A DNA stretch of 64,000 nt from Escherichia coli (GTDB taxonomy: Bacteria; Pseudomonadota; Gammaproteobacteria; Enterobacterales; Enterobacteriaceae). Below are positions 45,001 to 51,000 of the stretch, in pieces. Every line of letters begins with the position of its first letter. Within the stretch, counting starts at the first letter, position 1. The stretch lies in NCBI RefSeq assembly GCF_001677475.2, contig NZ_CP012498.1. One strand, written 5' to 3'. A program made the position numbers.

Positions 45001-48000
45001 CAGATAATATTCCTGAGGACATTACTTTTAAAGCATATTACCTGCCCTACCAAAAGAATAATGTTACATCCCTGTCTCTGGAATTGAATTCAGATTTTAA
45101 TTATTTCTTTACAGATATACTGGATGGATGTTCAGTTGGAATACGCACAGAGGAGGTTGTAACCCGTGTATACCATGCAAATGCCTTCAGGTATGGTGAG
45201 TTTTTATACCGAAAAGAGAAAATGAACGCCGGTTTTGCATTACGACGACAGGTAAGTATGCAGAACAATATGATTAAAAATGTAGCAGGGAATGATGCAA
45301 AAATTATATCCCCATGGCATTATGGGCATCATGGTGAAAATGCTATGTTTTATAAAACACTCTTTTTTGGGTACAGAGAGAGTATCTCCGGTGGATGGTG
45401 TTTTTTGCGTCAGACATATGATATCCGTAACATGGAAAACTCATGGTTTCGGTAATTATGTGGATGACAGATACTCTGTGAATGTTTTGAGAAGCGAAGA
45501 GTGCTCCTGAATGGATGAGATATTATATCTGAATGGAAAAAGGGTCAGGTTAAGAACATGTAACCATGTTTTGTCTGAACGTCTTGCTGTTATCAGTCAT
45601 GGCCGATACACTCCACTTTTGCCCCATGTATCTGCATCTGTCAACCGGATGGACATATCCGTTCACTGGTATGTAAGGCATGGAGAGACGATTTCTAATC
45701 ATAATGTCATAAAGATTTTTGAGCTTCTTCATCAGGGAAGGCATCCCGAGTCTCAGAAAGATTACTCCGGGCGAATAATGGTGAAAAACTACTCATTACG
45801 TCCTGAGCCAGCTCTTGAACGATGCTGTACTCCACGTGCCGGAGGTAAATGTGATGTACTTAACCCTGTGGACCCTGTTACGACGCAGGATATCATTGAG
45901 GGTATAAATAATAATGTATTAAAATATAAAGAAGTTCATTTCCTTTCGTGCAGGGCGCTCCGCTTAACTCAGGGGTACATCATATAGCATTATTAATAAG
46001 AAAATATTTATTATCTGTGCAAAAAACGCATGGTAACATCCGGGGGGCGGATGTTGTTCTGAATCATTCTCTGGTAGTTTGATATGAAACGTTTCTTCTT
46101 AAAAAACAAATATAAAGGAATTGATGATGAGTTTTCTGATGGGGACCTCATTTTTGGTATTGCCATTATAATAAAAGAAATACAGCTCCATCTGATTAAG
46201 GACAGAAACTGTCAGTATATCATTCAGGCAGATTTAACAAATGATGTATGGAGTTACGCTGATACCCGATTTGCCGTAAAAAATACAAATGACAGGTCCG
46301 TGGGGTTTTTAAATCACATATCAATGCACGACAAATATAATGTCTCTGCATTGTTTATTTCAAACACATTCAAAAACAGAGTTAATGTATTTAAAAAGAC
46401 AAGCAAGTGCGGGCTTGAATATCAGTTACTTATTTTGAAAAACAGAGTGCATTTTTTTATTGATGGTCTTGATTTATCCTCTGTTGCCAGTAAAACCGAT
46501 GGGCACGGAAGGAGTGTTACAGCAAGTGAGTTGCGATGGCTGTACAGACACCGTTACATGCCAGATGTACGAAAGAATCTTGTCTTCTGGAAAAACTACA
46601 AAAAACTATCTCAGGAGGATGTATTTTCGTTGCCCCTGTGGCAGGCATATCGCCCGAAAAAAATTTATCAGTAGGGGTATCGACAGGGGGAGAATAAACG
46701 GAAACCCGGAAAAGAAAATCATGAACGGCTCCTCAGTCGATGACGTTCAGTAGTGGTGAGTACCAAAAGAGAACGGGATAAAAACAATTCTGACATGGTT
46801 TACCAGATTTCATCTTTACCACGACAGATACAGGTTGTCAGCTTCTCTTCAAAACCGGTGTTACTAAAACGGGAGTGACCATAAATTCGTTTTCATCGCC
46901 GACCCCAAAGAACGCGCGTTGCCCGATGTTTTTTCTTTGAACTACTATTCTATGACCTTCAGACGATATTCAGACAGCCGCAAGAAAAAGCAGTGATAAG
47001 GGGTCGCTGACATTGAGAACGACAAGTTCAATCCTGTGTGTAATCACCAGCTTCATTGCTGCCGGACAAAATCAAATCTCAATCACTGAACTGGTTATCC
47101 TGTCCGGTATTAGTCGACAGAGGAGTCTGAAGTCCAATGGAACGAAAACGTACGTTAGTGAAGTAACTGTCTGATATATCAAAACATAATGGACATAGAA
47201 AACGCCATCAAAACGGTGTCTTTTTAATCGAAAATTGGCACTTAACGGACGACATTGTCTACTAATCGATTTTATCCTCTTACCGTACGTTTTCGTACGG
47301 TTGGCCCTCAAACCCCGATGAACGCTATGGTGAAGGGGGGCGCCGTATTAGCTTACTTGGACAGCATGTACTTTATGAAGTGAATGATGAGGCCAGTCGT
47401 GTCAATATCCTGGCGGTTGTAGGCCAGCGTCAGAATCCCCGATTCATTCTTTGAGTGTCCGGATTGGAACTCCATCTTCAGAGAATCGATCAACGTTCTT
47501 TAGCTCCTTCCACTAACAGCCGACCTATCTCAAACACCGCAGCTGACCGTCCCGACTTCACCGCTTCGGCTTTCTGTCCCTCAACAAACCAGTTATTACC
47601 GTCCGTTCGGACCAACTCAAACATCCATGACATATCGTAAACGTGTTCCGGGATCAGCGACCCTTCCCCGGCCAGAATACCCGCCGTTATGGAGTGGTTG
47701 CCCCCGTGCACAAAGCCAATACGCCAGGGCAACCACAGGTCAACATAGTGGTTGTTTTTATCTTGCCTCCACGGCTTCCCCTTATGGGTTCCAATGCGTG
47801 AAACGTTGTCGATATAGCGTGGTAGGCTCCAAGGCCACGGCAGCACTATGTCGCTTGCCAGCGACAACGGATAATCAGCGCCGTTCATCTCACACTCTTT
47901 CATCTTTTCGTAATATTGTATTTGGGTAAGTCCCTTAAAGAAGAACTCCTGCGGGGTCATATCCGGGCGGGCATCTGTTCCCTCCTCAGCTACCGCCAGC

Positions 48001-51000
48001 AAGAAATCACTCTGTACTGGCCGCACGATAGCGCGAATGAGATCTGGTAGCGCCTTAACGGGTAGTTTCTCTGCCACAGAAAGCAGATGATTGAAGCGTT
48101 TTTTTTCATTGGCTATAGTTGCTTTATCTTTCTTGTTTCGGTTCCAGAACATCACTGTCTGTAGCCCTCCTTATCGTGATCAGGATGATGGTTTTCATTC
48201 TAATGCTGTAGTAGTTTCACGTCACGCGCACGTGCATATTCTTCGAAAGCTTCGGCGTTAGCCGGTCAACCAGTTCCGCCTGGTAGGGGTCAGTTTGGAT
48301 ATGGGAAAATTTTGTACGTTAAGCGCATTATTTAACCGTAACGGATTGATTTTGTGTCAACGGCTATCGCTTTTAAATTATCGCCATTGCGGTATTGCAT
48401 TTAGGTTATCCGATTGAGTTCAACTCCCCTGAAAACAGCGTATAGCGGAGGAGTACACCCTATCGCGATAGGTAAGCCTGTTCAAAAAAACAGGCTTACC
48501 GTACAATAATTCTCTATATCCAAACTGACCCCATATACTGTGTATATACGTGGTAAATTAGGCATAAGTAGAGCCACTTATTTTAGGATGCGCGAACAAA
48601 TGAAGTTAAAGAATTGGCTTATTCCACTTATTGTCTGGATGTTTATTTATATTGGTATAAGGCTCGTATTTGATGGTGGGTGTAATGATGGGTGGAGCTC
48701 ATCATCAATTGGTCGGATGGGGGCTTGCTCACATCATGGTGGTGTCAACCATACATCCGGCTTTATAGCATTTATTTTTGCCACCATTGTGTCAGGTTGG
48801 TTACTTTTTAAAATGAATGAGGTTGAGTCAAGGAAAATAAGAAAATCCTATATCGTTGAATCAAGTTTTTTCGAAATGGAATATATTAGCTCTCCATTTA
48901 ACCCATCTGATTCTTTAAAAATTAATTCCAGTGAAATTAATTTTACTCATAGGAGCGGGTGGGATGGTATGCCTGATGAATCCATTAGAGTTGAATCATC
49001 GTATGATTTTTAAAAGATATAATTCTCCTTTCAGAGAAAATAAAAAGTGATATTGAGATGTTTAGCAGAGAAAACTCCGGTTTTGGGTGTGATGGCGAAA
49101 TAGTTTGTATTAGGTTTTTTGACGGTACTAAAGAGGTAAAATTTCAGACTCCGATGATATTTATTAATTTTGAAAATATATCAGACTCAACCCTCAAGCT
49201 GATGACTACCCTTAGGCGAAAACTGAAATTCGACTTCTAGGGAGCCGCTTGGAATTCGGAAAATAAACCACGTTAAGACTAGGTTTTAGCCAAAGGATTT
49301 TTAGGAATCGCCAGAATGGCGGGACAACAGCGGTTTTGGTGTCCGAAATCGTACGTTTATGGTGCAGTAAGTGAGAATTTATTCGTACCAGCTATGGATA
49401 CGTTACGGGCAGTGATTTTTCGCGCCAGACAGCTATTTCTTTGCTGTCCGGTTAACGGCGGTCTTACGTACAGGTTGCCGAACGCAAAATTTGTGCATTC
49501 CGGAAATTTCGGCGGTTGCGGCTTGGAACCCCTTTTATTGTTACAGGAGGCCTGGGCTTGTCTGCTACCGGTCCGGACGGGAGGGACACCGGGAATTTGA
49601 ATCCGGTTAACTGAGCCGGACATACGGTAAATAAGGAATGCAGGCAGAACGGGAAGCACTGTAGGATGAGACAGTAGTCTGGAAGTACATCAAAATTGCA
49701 ACAATAGTACGCTATTGCGTGACATAGATTCGTGACGTATAGTTACTGCATCTTATTTGTATATAACCACCATCAGGTACAAAATTATGTCTCCCGCACA
49801 AGCTAAACAAAAGCAGCATGAACGCTACGAAGCCGTAGCGGTGCAGGTTTTGCGTGGTCGTGCCGGTTACAAGCCTGCCGTAAAAAGCCGTTTCAGTAAG
49901 TCAGCCAATAGCAAATTCTCCCATACTATCGCTTTTGCCTGATCATGAACTTTGAGGCACAATAAACCATCATTCGCTGATGGTTTTTTTATGCCAGTTC
50001 AAGACGTTATTCCCCCCTATGAGCAGATGTACCTGCTAAATCAGCAGTTGATCTGCAACGCTGACCAGCTCAAACATGCCGTTATCACAGTTGGCGGCCA
50101 GGCTGTGCAATACTGGATATCCTATTATCATGCACAATACGGCGACAGATTGCCTGATGAGCGTCTCACCACTTCTGTTGACTGCGACTACAGTGCTCGG
50201 AAAGATGATATTGCGGTTATAGCAAAAACGCTCAACGTGAAAACGTGGGAAAACAAAGACGGTCAGCCCCCATCCCTTGCGCAGTTTATGCTTATCGATC
50301 AGGACACACACGATATCAAACGGGATGATGGACGTTTATTTGCCGTACCGGATGCGCCTGACGAGCCAAATGTGGTGGATATTATCGATCGGCCCGGAGG
50401 CTTCGACCGTTCTGATTTTCTGGGGGAAAAGCTTTACCTGCATACTGCCCCGTTTTATGTAGAAGCAACCGGCCCCGGTATGCCTGAAATGAATGAAAAG
50501 GTAAGGGTGTTGAACCCTGTAGCCTGTATGCGATCGCGCTTTAGCAATCTGATTGCCTTGCGCCGTGATGCTGAAATTGAAATTGCGCGAATTAACGCGC
50601 TCAAGATTCCGTGTTATTTCTTTCTCATCGAACAGTTTGATGAACAGCCGTTCAAAGTTGCTCGAGGAATCTTTATGGATTTATGGCGGCTCGCGAATGA
50701 CGAAAGTTGTCTGCGCCATCAGACCTTCTGGCATAGTTGGCAGGGGCCACTTCTTGAAGGGCAACAAAGTAACAACATCACTCTGATTGATATATTGGAA
50801 GGCGTCCATGCATTCCTGGAAGGGCATCTTGATGACTTTGAAATACCTGAAGCCTTTGTCACCAAAGAATTACCGATAAAGCTCGCACAGTTGCGTGAAC
50901 GCTGGGAGCGTTATGTGGTACTCAATGCTGAATGGGCAGCAAGAGGACGCAGGGGATTTGAACGTAATTACCGTGATGATTAGCCTCCTTTGAGCTGAAA

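What the first reader, a model, noticed from the sequence alone, without database searches (positions are those of the whole stretch)
47490..49013. Divergent pair of uncharacterised genes with a shared palindromic motif
A 221-aa cytoplasmic-looking ORF (minus) and a small two-helix membrane protein (plus) are divergently arranged. The membrane gene's 5' region contains atatactgtgtatatac, the same motif that overlaps the palindrome gtgtatatacac upstream of the RelB/RelE-type pair at 5215. A perfect 10-bp inverted repeat (ggtaagcctg...caggcttacc) lies at 48471-48500. The shared motif suggests a common regulator or a relocated promoter cassette.
Basis: seen in the sequence. Interest (0 to 1): 0.45.

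Follow-up and report, generated by a model that had tools for sequence, protein, structure and literature searches.

The report
Mobile-element scar joining two plasmid genes
The two genes are not a co-regulated pair: a 247-bp non-autonomous transposon (MITESen1) sits between a fertility-inhibition (FipA-family) gene and a frameshifted membrane-protein gene captured from a small plasmid, and the "shared motif" is the leftover of a second copy of the yacA toxin-antitoxin promoter, which is ordinary plasmid mosaicism.

Summary
The 17-mer ATATACTGTGTATATAC occurs exactly twice (5177, 48533), and the inverted repeat at 48471-48500 exists. The window is an IncF-type Escherichia plasmid.

- **221-aa ORF.** It is a DUF6710 protein, 50% identical to the IncN protein in the fipA position (a fertility inhibitor acting on rival plasmids).
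- **Spacer.** The 247 bp between the genes (48286-48532) is a copy of MITESen1, a known Tn3-derived miniature element. The inverted repeat lies inside it.
- **Motif copy 1.** It lies 22 nt upstream of yacA in the known yacAB toxin-antitoxin locus, and is invariant in four alleles.
- **Motif copy 2.** It starts at the first base after the MITESen1 tip. An E. coli contig without the MITE (L011) carries the complete yacA upstream region through the motif, then switches to small-plasmid DNA. The membrane gene was therefore fused to a second yacA promoter, and the MITE later removed all but about 17-24 nt of it.
- **Membrane gene.** It is a 213-codon gene with a 1-nt deletion in a T run. It comes from ~3.9-kb mobilisable plasmids and ends exactly at another Tn3-type repeat.

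"Relocated promoter cassette" is partly right; "divergent regulated pair" is not supported. All parts are of known kinds, so interest is low.

The parts
47122..47316 (+). IS101 copy (a Tn3/gamma-delta-derived miniature element), 195 bp with 13-bp and 1-bp internal deletions. It cuts off the 5' part of the ParE-like toxin gene.
   Evidence: It aligns end to end with the 209-bp IS101 sequence from Table S2 of PMC13367494, 183/209 columns identical. The flanks ACAGA and GATGA are not a direct repeat.
47317..47454 (+). 3' remnant (138 nt, including the stop) of a RelE/ParE-family toxin gene. In IncFII plasmids this gene is intact and convergent with the DUF6710 gene.
   Evidence: 99.2% identity to pEco15-3 and about 100 other plasmids starts exactly at 47317. 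The intact L002 gene has a ParE_toxin domain.
47490..48155 (-). FipA-family (DUF6710) gene, 221 aa, no hydrophobic segment.
   Evidence: - Pfam DUF6710, E 2e-48.
- 50% identity (E 2e-76) to the 208-aa IncN protein lying between the MobF relaxase and the PLD nuclease, which UniRef names 'Fertility inhibition protein'. R46 has the same arrangement.
- AlphaFold model: pLDDT 93.4.
- Maximum Kyte-Doolittle 19-residue mean is 1.0.
48197..48225 (-). Promoter-like site (GTGACG-17-TAGAAT) upstream of the DUF6710 gene, inside the block conserved with IncFII plasmids (to 48273).
   Evidence: Consensus scan, with site counts not above shuffles. The conserved block is shown. Function is inferred.
48286..48532 (-). 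MITESen1-family TIME (Tn3-derived inverted-repeat miniature element), 247 bp. The minus strand is the ISFinder orientation. Terminal 38-bp IRs lie at 48286-48323 and 48495-48532.
   Evidence: - End-to-end alignment to ISFinder MITESen1 (256 bp): 219/258 columns identical, with an 11-bp internal deletion.
- The two IR tips were found by pattern search, and the arms pair in blastn.
- Relatives in other genera carry 5-bp target duplications: L015 AAGAA, L019 TTACA.
- Matches in about 2,900 PLSDB plasmids.
48471..48500 (.). 12-bp perfect inverted repeat (ggtaagcctgtt / aacaggcttacc, 6-nt loop) at the inner edge of the MITESen1 IR.
   Evidence: Read from the sequence. It is present, with occasional mismatches, in MITESen1 copies from 14 other genomes and in the ISFinder reference. 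No T run follows it and the terminator scan did not call it.
48533..48556 (+). Orphan relic of a second yacA promoter/operator. The 17-mer (48533-48549) is certainly of yacA origin. 48550-48556 (GTGGTAA) is the microhomology zone of the junction with small-plasmid DNA.
   Evidence: Alignment A1. L011 carries the full yacA upstream region through this motif. Small-plasmid homology begins at 48549-48557.
48557..49239 (+). Segment derived from a ~3.9-kb mobilisable plasmid: the last ~43 nt of its rep gene, then the two-TM membrane-protein gene. The gene runs from ATG 48600 over 213 codons, has a frameshift at T run 49007-49011, and has lost its last two codons.
   Evidence: - 88% identity over ~690 bp to L005, ending exactly at 49239.
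- Homologues P0001/P0002 are 213-215 aa.
- In L005-L010 the gene overlaps the stop of a Replicase+PriCT_1 rep gene.
- Frameshift repair.
- The DUF3761 motif is found only below threshold: 14.5 bits against a 29-bit cut-off.
49240..49277 (+). Tn21-subgroup-type 38-bp inverted-repeat tip (GGGAGCCGCTTGGAATTCGGAAAATAAACCACGTTAAG). Its first G completes the TAG stop of the truncated membrane gene.
   Evidence: Regex and blastn matches. L011 has the same junction. Related tips lie at 4870-4907(-) and 41406-41443(-).
5177..5193 (+). The 17-mer in its native place, 22 nt upstream of the yacA start codon. It consists of the direct repeat ATATAC-TGTGT-ATATAC, which also forms the inverted repeat ATATAC-TGT-GTATAT and overlaps the palindrome GTGTATATACAC (5184-5195).
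   Evidence: It is invariant in four yacA-promoter alleles whose flanks differ (window, L004, L011, L028).
5215..5762 (+). Intact yacA (5215-5484) and yacB (5481-5762) toxin-antitoxin operon.
   Evidence: ParE_toxin Pfam E 1.6e-16. RelB/DinJ N-terminal match is sub-threshold. The upstream region and start of the gene are 87-92% identical to annotated yacA in 1,853 plasmids.

Best explanation
The region is a recombination scar in an IncF plasmid, built from known parts. It is not a regulatory unit.

**(1) The 221-aa gene.** It is a FipA-family (DUF6710) gene with its own IncFII-type upstream block. By homology it is a cytoplasmic fertility-inhibition factor that blocks conjugation of co-resident IncP-type plasmids through their coupling protein. 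In related IncFII plasmids it lies convergent to a ParE-type toxin gene. Here that toxin gene is cut by an IS101 copy.

**(2) The 247 bp upstream of it.** This is a MITESen1 copy, a non-autonomous Tn3-derived element that moves only when a Tn3-family transposase is supplied in trans.

**(3) The 17-mer.** It is the conserved core of the yacA promoter, and probably the operator bound by the YacA antitoxin. In an earlier plasmid, represented by contig L011, a fragment of a small mobilisable plasmid became joined to a second yacA promoter. The fragment comprises the tail of the small plasmid's rep gene plus a two-TM membrane-protein gene. The join lies in a short microhomology (CGTGG..TAA). The other end of the fragment stops exactly at a Tn21-type repeat tip.

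**(4) The MITE junction.** A MITESen1 tip was later joined to the first ATATA of the motif. The likeliest routes are intramolecular replicative transposition giving an adjacent deletion, or recombination between two MITE copies. Everything upstream of the motif was removed, and the FipA-like gene was brought next to the membrane gene.

**(5) The membrane gene today.** It has a 1-nt deletion in a T run and lacks the upstream part of its promoter, so it is most likely an inactive relic.

**Shown:** the identities, the boundaries, and the existence of the MITE-free ancestor-type arrangement.
**Inferred:** the order and mechanism of events, operator function, promoter activity and FipA activity.
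For: - **IncF context.**
- **DUF6710 / FipA.** Pfam E 2e-48. 50% identity to the IncN protein between traI and nuc, which UniRef names 'Fertility inhibition protein'. The literature reports that pKM101 FipA acts on TraG (PMC5696584).
- **IS101.** Alignment.
- **MITESen1.** Full-length alignment. 5-bp duplications around relatives in L015 and L019. The palindrome is present in copies from 14 genomes.
- **Motif.** Exact twice. It lies upstream of annotated yacA in L004 and in 1,853 plasmids.
- **MITE-free arrangement.** L011 has the complete yacA upstream region, then the motif, then the same membrane gene, with no MITE.
- **Small-plasmid origin.** Shown with exact end points.
- **Frameshift.**
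- **Second MITE junction in the motif.** In six Klebsiella plasmids a MITESen1 tip is joined to the second ATATA of the same motif, with a related TACCAG..GCGG flank at its other end.
- **Derived variant.** L003 carries the same MITE/motif junction, with the membrane gene cut by yet another Tn3-type tip.
Against: - No 5-bp target duplication flanks the MITESen1 copy in the window (GGTA on the left, ATATA on the right). Its insertion here is therefore inferred from junction geometry, not from a classic footprint.
- The order of events rests on one MITE-free contig (L011), which ends 198 bp upstream of the gene.
- The -35 and -10 elements of the yacA promoter could not be assigned: the consensus scan found nothing there. 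Whether the relic keeps promoter or operator activity is unknown.
- The T5/T6 difference could be a homopolymer sequencing error, in which case the membrane gene would be intact.
- FipA activity has been shown only for the IncN protein, which is 50% identical.
- I did not compare the window protein directly with GenBank AAC63100.
Confidence: 0.85

Rival explanations
1. The 17-mer is a working operator at both places. YacA, or the YacA-YacB complex made from the intact locus at 5215, would repress the membrane gene in trans or be titrated by the orphan site. The two loci would then share a regulator.
For: - The 17-mer is invariant in four yacA promoter alleles whose flanks vary, and it contains inverted repeats of the kind bound by ribbon-helix-helix antitoxins.
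- The relic keeps the whole 17-mer.
- In L011 the gene sits behind the complete yacA promoter, so regulation by YacA was probably real in that ancestor.
Against: - In the window, everything upstream of the motif is MITE DNA.
- The 12-bp palindrome is imperfect in copy 2 (GTGTATATACGT), though an annotated yacA promoter (L004) has the same variant.
- The gene is frameshifted.
- No binding data exist for YacA in the papers I read.
Confidence: 0.15
2. The motif is a LexA (SOS) box, so both loci would be DNA-damage inducible.
For: Copy 1 reads TACTGTGTATATACACGGTA, matching 17 of 20 positions of TACTGTATATATATACAGTA (the consensus is from my own knowledge).
Against: - The defining CTG-N10-CAG is not met in any allele: CGG in the window yacA copy, TGG in copy 2 and L011, TAG in L004.
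- Conservation covers ATATACTGTGTATATAC and stops before the second half-site.
Confidence: 0.03
3. The 10-12-bp inverted repeat is a terminator or a shared regulatory hairpin that serves the divergent gene pair.
For: It is a perfect 12-bp stem lying between the two genes.
Against: - It lies inside MITESen1 and overlaps the inner end of its terminal repeat.
- It travels with the element in unrelated contexts in 14 other genomes.
- No T run follows on either strand, and the terminator scan did not call it.
- There is no Rfam match.
Confidence: 0.03
4. The IS101 copy and the MITESen1 copy form a composite transposon (TIME-COMP) that moved the FipA-like gene as a unit.
For: - Two Tn3-subgroup-type miniature elements bracket the toxin-gene remnant and the DUF6710 gene.
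Against: - The two elements belong to different families.
- The outer IS101 tip is degenerate (GGAG instead of GGGG).
- The outer flanks ACAGA and ATATA are not a direct repeat.
- In IncFII plasmids the DUF6710 gene sits in the same backbone position without these elements.
Confidence: 0.04

Closest known systems
MITESen1 (ISFinder; a TIME described in Gomi & Yano 2026, PMC13367494)
   Same: - Both 38-bp Tn3-family terminal repeats are present.
- The IR on the palindrome side is identical to the reference over its 38 bp.
- The internal sequence aligns over the full length, including the palindrome next to that IR.
- There is no ORF, and it is plasmid-borne in Enterobacterales.
   Different: - 247 bp rather than 256 bp (11-bp internal deletion plus two 1-nt insertions); 219 of 258 alignment columns identical.
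- No flanking 5-bp duplication in this copy.
- Matches to this stretch occur in about 2,900 PLSDB plasmids, while the paper counted canonical MITESen1 in 264 RefSeq genomes. The two counts use different criteria.
FipA of IncN plasmids pKM101/R46 (fertility inhibition of IncP plasmids through TraG; Santini & Stanisich 1998, as cited in PMC5696584)
   Same: Same Pfam family (DUF6710). 50% identity over 200 residues to the IncN protein at the fipA position. Similar length. No membrane segment.
   Different: It is located beside the IncFII replication/toxin-antitoxin module rather than between traI and nuc. Activity is untested for this IncF branch. I made no direct comparison with the deposited pKM101 sequence.
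yacAB toxin-antitoxin locus of IncF and Shigella pINV plasmids (PMC9455713, PMC7354431)
   Same: The pair at 5215 matches annotated yacA at DNA level, with the 17-mer at the same distance (22 nt) from the start codon.
   Different: The second copy of the promoter is only a 17-24-nt relic. It is fused to a foreign gene and has no antitoxin or toxin gene behind it.
IS101 of pSC101 (a gamma-delta-dependent miniature element)
   Same: Both terminal repeats and most of the interior are present (183/209 columns identical).
   Different: 13-bp and 1-bp deletions, a degenerate outer tip (GGAG), and no target duplication.
Adjacent deletions and inversions made by intramolecular replicative transposition of Tn3-family elements and IS26 (general knowledge; the cointegrate pathway and the TnpR-mediated events are outlined in PMC13367494)
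   Same: The new junction lies exactly at the element tip. The AT-rich pentanucleotide ATATA is the target. No duplication flanks the single remaining copy.
   Different: The event itself was not observed. Homologous recombination between two MITE copies would give the same picture.

Membership tests
TIME / MITESen1 | Tn3-family terminal inverted repeats of about 38 bp (GGGG...ACGNTAAG) at both ends | tested here: met
   IRs at 48286-48323 and 48495-48532. The arms pair 35/40, and both tips match GGGGTCAGTTTGGATAT.
TIME / MITESen1 | Full-length sequence similarity to the ISFinder MITESen1 reference | tested here: met
   Global alignment gives 219/258 identical columns, with one 11-bp deletion.
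TIME / MITESen1 | 50-500 bp and no transposase gene | tested here: met
   247 bp. Only chance ORFs of 31-40 aa overlap it.
TIME / MITESen1 | 5-bp (sometimes 6-bp) direct repeats of the target flanking the element | tested here: not met
   The window flanks are TGGTA and ATATA. The feature is met for related copies: L015 AAGAA, L019 TTACA. Absence fits a later rearrangement.
TIME / MITESen1 | Mobilisation in trans by a Tn3-family transposase | not testable with these tools
   This needs a mating-out or trap-plasmid assay.
FipA / DUF6710 | Match to Pfam PF20457 above the gathering score | tested here: met
   164.9 bits against a 27-bit cut-off, covering residues 13-216.
FipA / DUF6710 | Homology to the IncN protein encoded between traI and nuc (the fipA position) | tested here: met
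   BLASTP 50% identity, E 2e-76, to P0137 from pLR-33_1. UniRef names that protein 'Fertility inhibition protein'. R46 has a DUF6710 gene at the same position.
FipA / DUF6710 | Inhibits conjugation of a co-resident IncP plasmid by acting on its coupling protein TraG | not testable with these tools
   Known only from the literature on pKM101 FipA (PMC5696584).
yacAB (RelB/ParE-type toxin-antitoxin locus), pair at 5215 | Toxin with a ParE/RelE fold, and a small upstream overlapping antitoxin gene | tested here: met
   ParE_toxin E 1.6e-16 and RelE_StbE 30.9 bits against a 27.9-bit cut-off. The genes overlap by 4 nt. The antitoxin matches RelB_DinJ only below cut-off, 24.7 bits against 45.65.
yacAB promoter/operator, motif copy 2 | Sequence continuity with the yacA upstream region | tested here: met
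   In L011 about 135 bp of yacA upstream sequence runs into the same motif and gene. In the window only 17-24 nt remain.
yacAB promoter/operator | Bound by YacA or YacAB (autoregulation) | not testable with these tools
   Inferred from the general behaviour of type II antitoxins. The papers I read contain no data on this.
LexA (SOS) box | CTG-N10-CAG core | tested here: not met
   The second half-site is CGG, TGG or TAG in the four alleles.
DUF3761 (PF12587), membrane protein | Match above the Pfam gathering score | tested here: not met
   14.5 bits against 29, and only the last 23 positions of the model (the GxCSxHGGV motif). The database's precomputed labels list PF12587 for all homologues.
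Intrinsic terminator (the 12-bp repeat) | GC-rich stem followed by a T run | tested here: not met
   No T run follows on either strand, and the scan did not call it.
ParB/Srx superfamily (considered for DUF6710, as for the inhibitor Osa) | Significant fold or profile similarity to ParB/Srx proteins | tested here: inconclusive
- Profile: hhalign to human sulfiredoxin and to an Osa/FiwA alignment gives probability below 1%.

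The most novel reading that the evidence does not exclude
The orphan 17-24-nt yacA operator beside the MITE may still bind YacA/YacAB made by the intact locus 43 kb away on the same plasmid. A toxin-antitoxin autoregulatory circuit would then control, or be titrated by, a foreign site. In MITE-free relatives such as L011, a complete toxin-antitoxin promoter would have been co-opted to drive a captured small-plasmid membrane gene, tying that gene's expression to the antitoxin/toxin ratio.
Probability: 0.15. Interest if true: 0.35.

Novelty: already known. 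Interest (0 to 1): 0.2.

Why it matters
It matters mainly as a worked example. A "shared palindromic motif between unrelated genes" on a plasmid can be the footprint of promoter duplication plus mobile-element rearrangement, rather than a regulon.

Minor points of practical value:
- MITESen1-like and IS101-like miniature elements are not annotated by standard pipelines. Here they explain a truncated toxin gene, a lost promoter and a false "divergent pair".
- The ATATA repeats of the yacA operator appear to be a recurrent joining point for MITESen1 tips, in the window lineage and in six Klebsiella plasmids.
- DUF6710, still labelled "unknown function", contains the protein at the fipA position of IncN plasmids. 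Many IncF plasmids may therefore carry a fertility inhibitor next to their replication region.

Tried and rejected
- **Chance match.** Rejected: two exact 17-mers, and homology of the flanks in L011.
- **LexA box.** Rejected: the second half-site is neither conserved nor CAG.
- **Terminator or RNA element.** No T run, no terminator call, and only noise-level Rfam matches (E 0.47 and 0.83).
- **Structural role for the palindrome.** Copies from 14 genomes show it is simply part of MITESen1. There are some mismatches and one partly compensated change in L004, which is not informative.
- **Target duplication around the MITE or the IS101 copy.** None found.
- **IS101 + MITESen1 composite transposon.** No flanking repeat, and the two elements are of different families.
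- **A simple MITE insertion into the yacA promoter with both flanks preserved.** A chimeric query found six Klebsiella plasmids, but there the tip is joined at the second ATATA, and the other flank is not yacA.
- **R100 tir as a possible DUF6710 relative** (another IncP-transfer inhibitor). From my own recollection of the R100 map, tir is the gene just upstream of pemI. That gene is annotated as a CPBP-family protease, and no DUF6710 gene is annotated in R100 50000-94281.
- **Sequence search of the PDB.** Nothing found.
- **hhalign of DUF6710 against sulfiredoxin and Osa/FiwA.** Nothing found.
- **-35/-10 of the yacA promoter.** They could not be assigned.

Full report
**1. Observation.**
- ORFs lie at 47490-48155 (-, 221 aa) and 48540-49013 (+).
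- ATATACTGTGTATATAC occurs exactly at 5177-5193 and 48533-48549. With up to 3 mismatches there are 4 hits against 0.23 expected, and none of 100 shuffles reaches 4.
- GTGTATATACAC occurs once, at 5184-5195.
- The inverted repeat at 48471-48500 is present and is in fact 12 bp long with a 6-nt loop.

**2. Context.**
The window is an IncF-type Escherichia plasmid mosaic.
- Window 47317-48273 is 99.2% identical to about 100 IncFII plasmids. There the order is repA, an 87-aa antitoxin-like gene, a RelE/ParE toxin gene, and a convergent "DUF6710 family protein" gene.
- In the window only the last 138 nt of that toxin gene remain (47317-47454).
- The break at 47316/47317 is the tip of a 195-bp copy of IS101, at 47122-47316. 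It matches the published IS101 sequence at 183 of 209 columns.

**3. The 221-aa gene.**
- It matches Pfam DUF6710 with E 2e-48.
- Homologues are mostly plasmid-borne, and a few carry the source name "Fip".
- In the IncN plasmid pLR-33_1 and in R46, a 208-aa DUF6710 protein lies between the MobF relaxase and the PLD-family nuclease. That is the position of fipA in my recollection of the pKM101 map; the tools did not test this. UniRef calls that exact sequence "Fertility inhibition protein".
- The window protein is 50% identical to it over 200 residues, E 2e-76.
- pKM101 FipA is reported to inhibit IncP transfer by an effect on the coupling protein TraG (Santini & Stanisich 1998, as cited in PMC5696584).
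- A promoter-like site lies at 48225-48197 on the minus strand, inside the IncFII-conserved block. The gene therefore keeps its own upstream region.

*Structure of DUF6710.*
- An AlphaFold model is confident (pLDDT 93.4, pTM 0.88).
- It has no significant structural neighbour.
- The weak matches are repeatedly ParB/Srx-fold proteins.
- Profile comparisons with sulfiredoxin and with the Osa/FiwA family are negative.
- I therefore treat the ParB/Srx resemblance as a hint only.

**4. The spacer.**
Window 48286-48532 has 38-bp Tn3-family terminal repeats. On the minus strand it aligns end to end with the ISFinder MITESen1 sequence taken from Table S2 of PMC13367494. Identity is 219 of 258 columns, with an 11-bp deletion.
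- MITESen1 is a known Tn3-derived inverted-repeat miniature element (TIME) with no recognisable res site.
- An exact-pattern scan of species-representative genomes returned 14 further copies in Kosakonia, Shimwellia, Rouxiella, Serratia, Klebsiella, Mixta, Rahnella and others. Two of them are flanked by perfect 5-bp duplications: AAGAA in L015 and TTACA in L019. The family is therefore mobile.
- All copies carry the GGTAAGCCTGTT...AACAGGCTTACC palindrome at the inner edge of one terminal repeat.
- No T run follows it, the terminator scan did not call it, and there is no Rfam match.

**5. The motif.**
Copy 1 lies 22 nt upstream of the start of the antitoxin gene at 5215.
- The pair is yacAB. 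The toxin has a ParE_toxin domain.
- The upstream region and start of the gene are 87-92% identical to annotated yacA in 1,853 plasmids.
- The Shigella plasmid psflex002 (L004) has the same motif at the same distance from annotated yacA.
- yacAB is a recognised toxin-antitoxin locus of IncF and pINV plasmids.
- The 17-mer is invariant in four alleles whose flanks differ (window, L004, L011, L028).
- It is built as ATATAC-TGTGT-ATATAC, which also forms the inverted repeat ATATAC-TGT-GTATAT.
- That it is the YacA operator is an inference from how type II antitoxins usually autoregulate.

**6. Copy 2 and the membrane gene.**
Copy 2 begins at the first base after the MITESen1 tip (48532/48533).

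*The gene itself.*
- The membrane ORF has homologues of 213-215 aa.
- The window has T5 at 49007-49011 where the L011 gene has T6. Adding one T restores a 213-aa protein, 203/213 identical to P0001.
- The protein has two hydrophobic segments (residues ~5-28 and ~52-73). Between them is a CxDGxxSxSxxxxGACSHHGGV motif that matches the end of Pfam DUF3761 only below threshold.

*Small-plasmid origin.*
- The 83%-identical homologue P0002 sits on ~3.9-kb mobilisable plasmids, including Proteus mirabilis assemblies.
- It lies directly after, and overlaps by 4 nt, a rep gene with Replicase and PriCT_1 domains.
- Window 48549/48557-49239 is 88% identical to that plasmid, starting ~43 nt inside the end of rep. 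The similarity ends exactly at 49239.
- At 49240 a Tn21-type 38-bp repeat tip begins, and its first G completes the TAG stop.

*The decisive comparison: contig L011.*
- L011 is from E. coli assembly GCA_910592755.1 and is collinear with the window downstream.
- It has no MITE. About 135 bp of typical yacA upstream sequence run through the 17-mer to GTGGTAA, then switch to the small-plasmid sequence and the intact gene.
- The switch lies in a microhomology: CGTGGTAA against CGTGGGTTGAA.
- The membrane gene was therefore fused to a second copy of the yacA promoter. In the window, MITESen1 has replaced everything upstream of the first ATATA.

**7. How the MITE junction arose.**
There is no target duplication in the window (TGGTA on the left, ATATA on the right).
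- A chimeric query (yacA upstream plus MITE end) found six Klebsiella plasmids in which a MITESen1 tip is joined to the second ATATA of the same 17-mer. The other end of that MITE abuts TACCAG..GCGG. This is related to the sequence that, in reverse complement, abuts the MITE on the DUF6710 side in the window.
- Junctions lying exactly at the element tip, in an AT-rich pentanucleotide and without duplication, are what intramolecular replicative transposition (adjacent deletion or inversion) would leave. Recombination between two differently located copies would give the same result. I cannot distinguish these two routes.
- L003 (p2RM9088) and 13 other complete E. coli plasmids carry the MITE/motif junction with the membrane gene further truncated at the position equivalent to 48853. 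In L003, which I read, the truncation is by another Tn3-type tip.
- In L003 the left side is a 2.1-kb deletion relative to the window that keeps the 4 nt GGTA next to the MITE.
- In pEco15-3 and pPRO_A-1420 a different 256-bp miniature element is inserted 12 bp away from the window's MITE position.
- This stretch beside the DUF6710 gene is thus a repeated landing and rearrangement zone for Tn3-derived miniature elements.

**8. Verdict.**
- There is no evidence for a divergently regulated gene pair.
- Every component belongs to a known kind: FipA/DUF6710, IS101, MITESen1, yacAB, and a small-plasmid passenger gene.
- The membrane gene is probably a relic, since it is frameshifted and has lost the upstream part of its promoter.
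- Remaining open points: whether the relic still binds YacA, whether the homopolymer difference is real, and what DUF6710/FipA does at the molecular level.

Noticed in passing
window 47122-47316: An unannotated IS101-like miniature element (195 bp) truncates a ParE-type toxin gene, leaving a 138-nt 3' remnant (47317-47454) with no antitoxin gene upstream.
   Followed up: yes
window 4870-4907(-), 41406-41443(-), 49240-49277(+): There are three Tn21-subgroup-like 38-bp repeat tips (GGGGGCCGCTTGGAATTCGGAAA...). The one at 4907 cuts the sequence ~270 bp upstream of the intact yacA motif. The one at 49240 provides the stop codon of the membrane gene. No partner tip lies within a few hundred bp, so these are ends of larger or broken elements.
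   Followed up: partly
L002 3299-3554 (pEco15-3) and L001 ~5956-6213: A 256-bp element with gamma-delta-like terminal repeats (GGGGTTTGAGGCCCAACCGTACGAGATCGTACGCTAAG ... CTTAGCGTACGTTTCCGCTCCATTGGGCTTCAAACCCC) is inserted 12 bp from where MITESen1 sits in the window. By eye it does not match the MITESen1, IS101 or TIME244 sequences I read in Table S2 of PMC13367494, nor the part of IMU that was shown. It may be an unnamed TIME.
   Followed up: no
window 47490-48155 (model m00086ee977f5): The confident DUF6710 model has no significant structural neighbour, but its weak matches are repeatedly ParB/Srx-fold proteins (SbnI, SerK, KorB, sulfiredoxin, ParB, many phage ParB/Sulfiredoxin entries). The family has an invariant GGNHS at a strand-to-helix junction. 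The fertility inhibitors Osa and FiwA belong to the ParB/Srx superfamily according to the literature. Profile comparisons were negative.
   Followed up: partly
L005-L010 (~3.9-kb plasmids, Proteus mirabilis and metagenome assemblies): In small mobilisable plasmids the 215-aa two-TM protein gene overlaps the stop of the Replicase/PriCT_1 rep gene by 4 nt, suggesting translational coupling with the replication initiator. Its function is unknown.
   Followed up: partly
L028 1636-1910 (K. pneumoniae pHNGS471-3) and five similar plasmids: MITESen1 is joined to the yacA operator at the second ATATA of the 17-mer, so yacAB has been removed from its promoter there. Together with the window, this suggests the operator's ATATA repeats are a recurrent MITESen1 target.
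   Followed up: partly
window 48286-48532 versus PLSDB: Sequences matching this MITESen1-like stretch occur in about 2,900 PLSDB plasmids, mostly at 80-95% identity. The published survey counted canonical MITESen1 in 264 of 11,572 RefSeq genomes. The divergent IncF branch may be under-counted.
   Followed up: no
supplementary Table S1 of PMC13367494: [quoted passage not shown] Other papers describe IncN insertions as splitting fipA (PMC13326340). This is indirect support that DUF6710 is FipA, and it shows the gene is a frequent insertion site.
   Followed up: partly
window 1696-2889 and 3084-4474: A 3-hydroxybenzoate 6-monooxygenase gene (NCBIfam E 3e-228) and IS3-family transposase ORFs lie just upstream of the intact yacAB locus. 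That locus is therefore not next to a repA gene in this plasmid.
   Followed up: no
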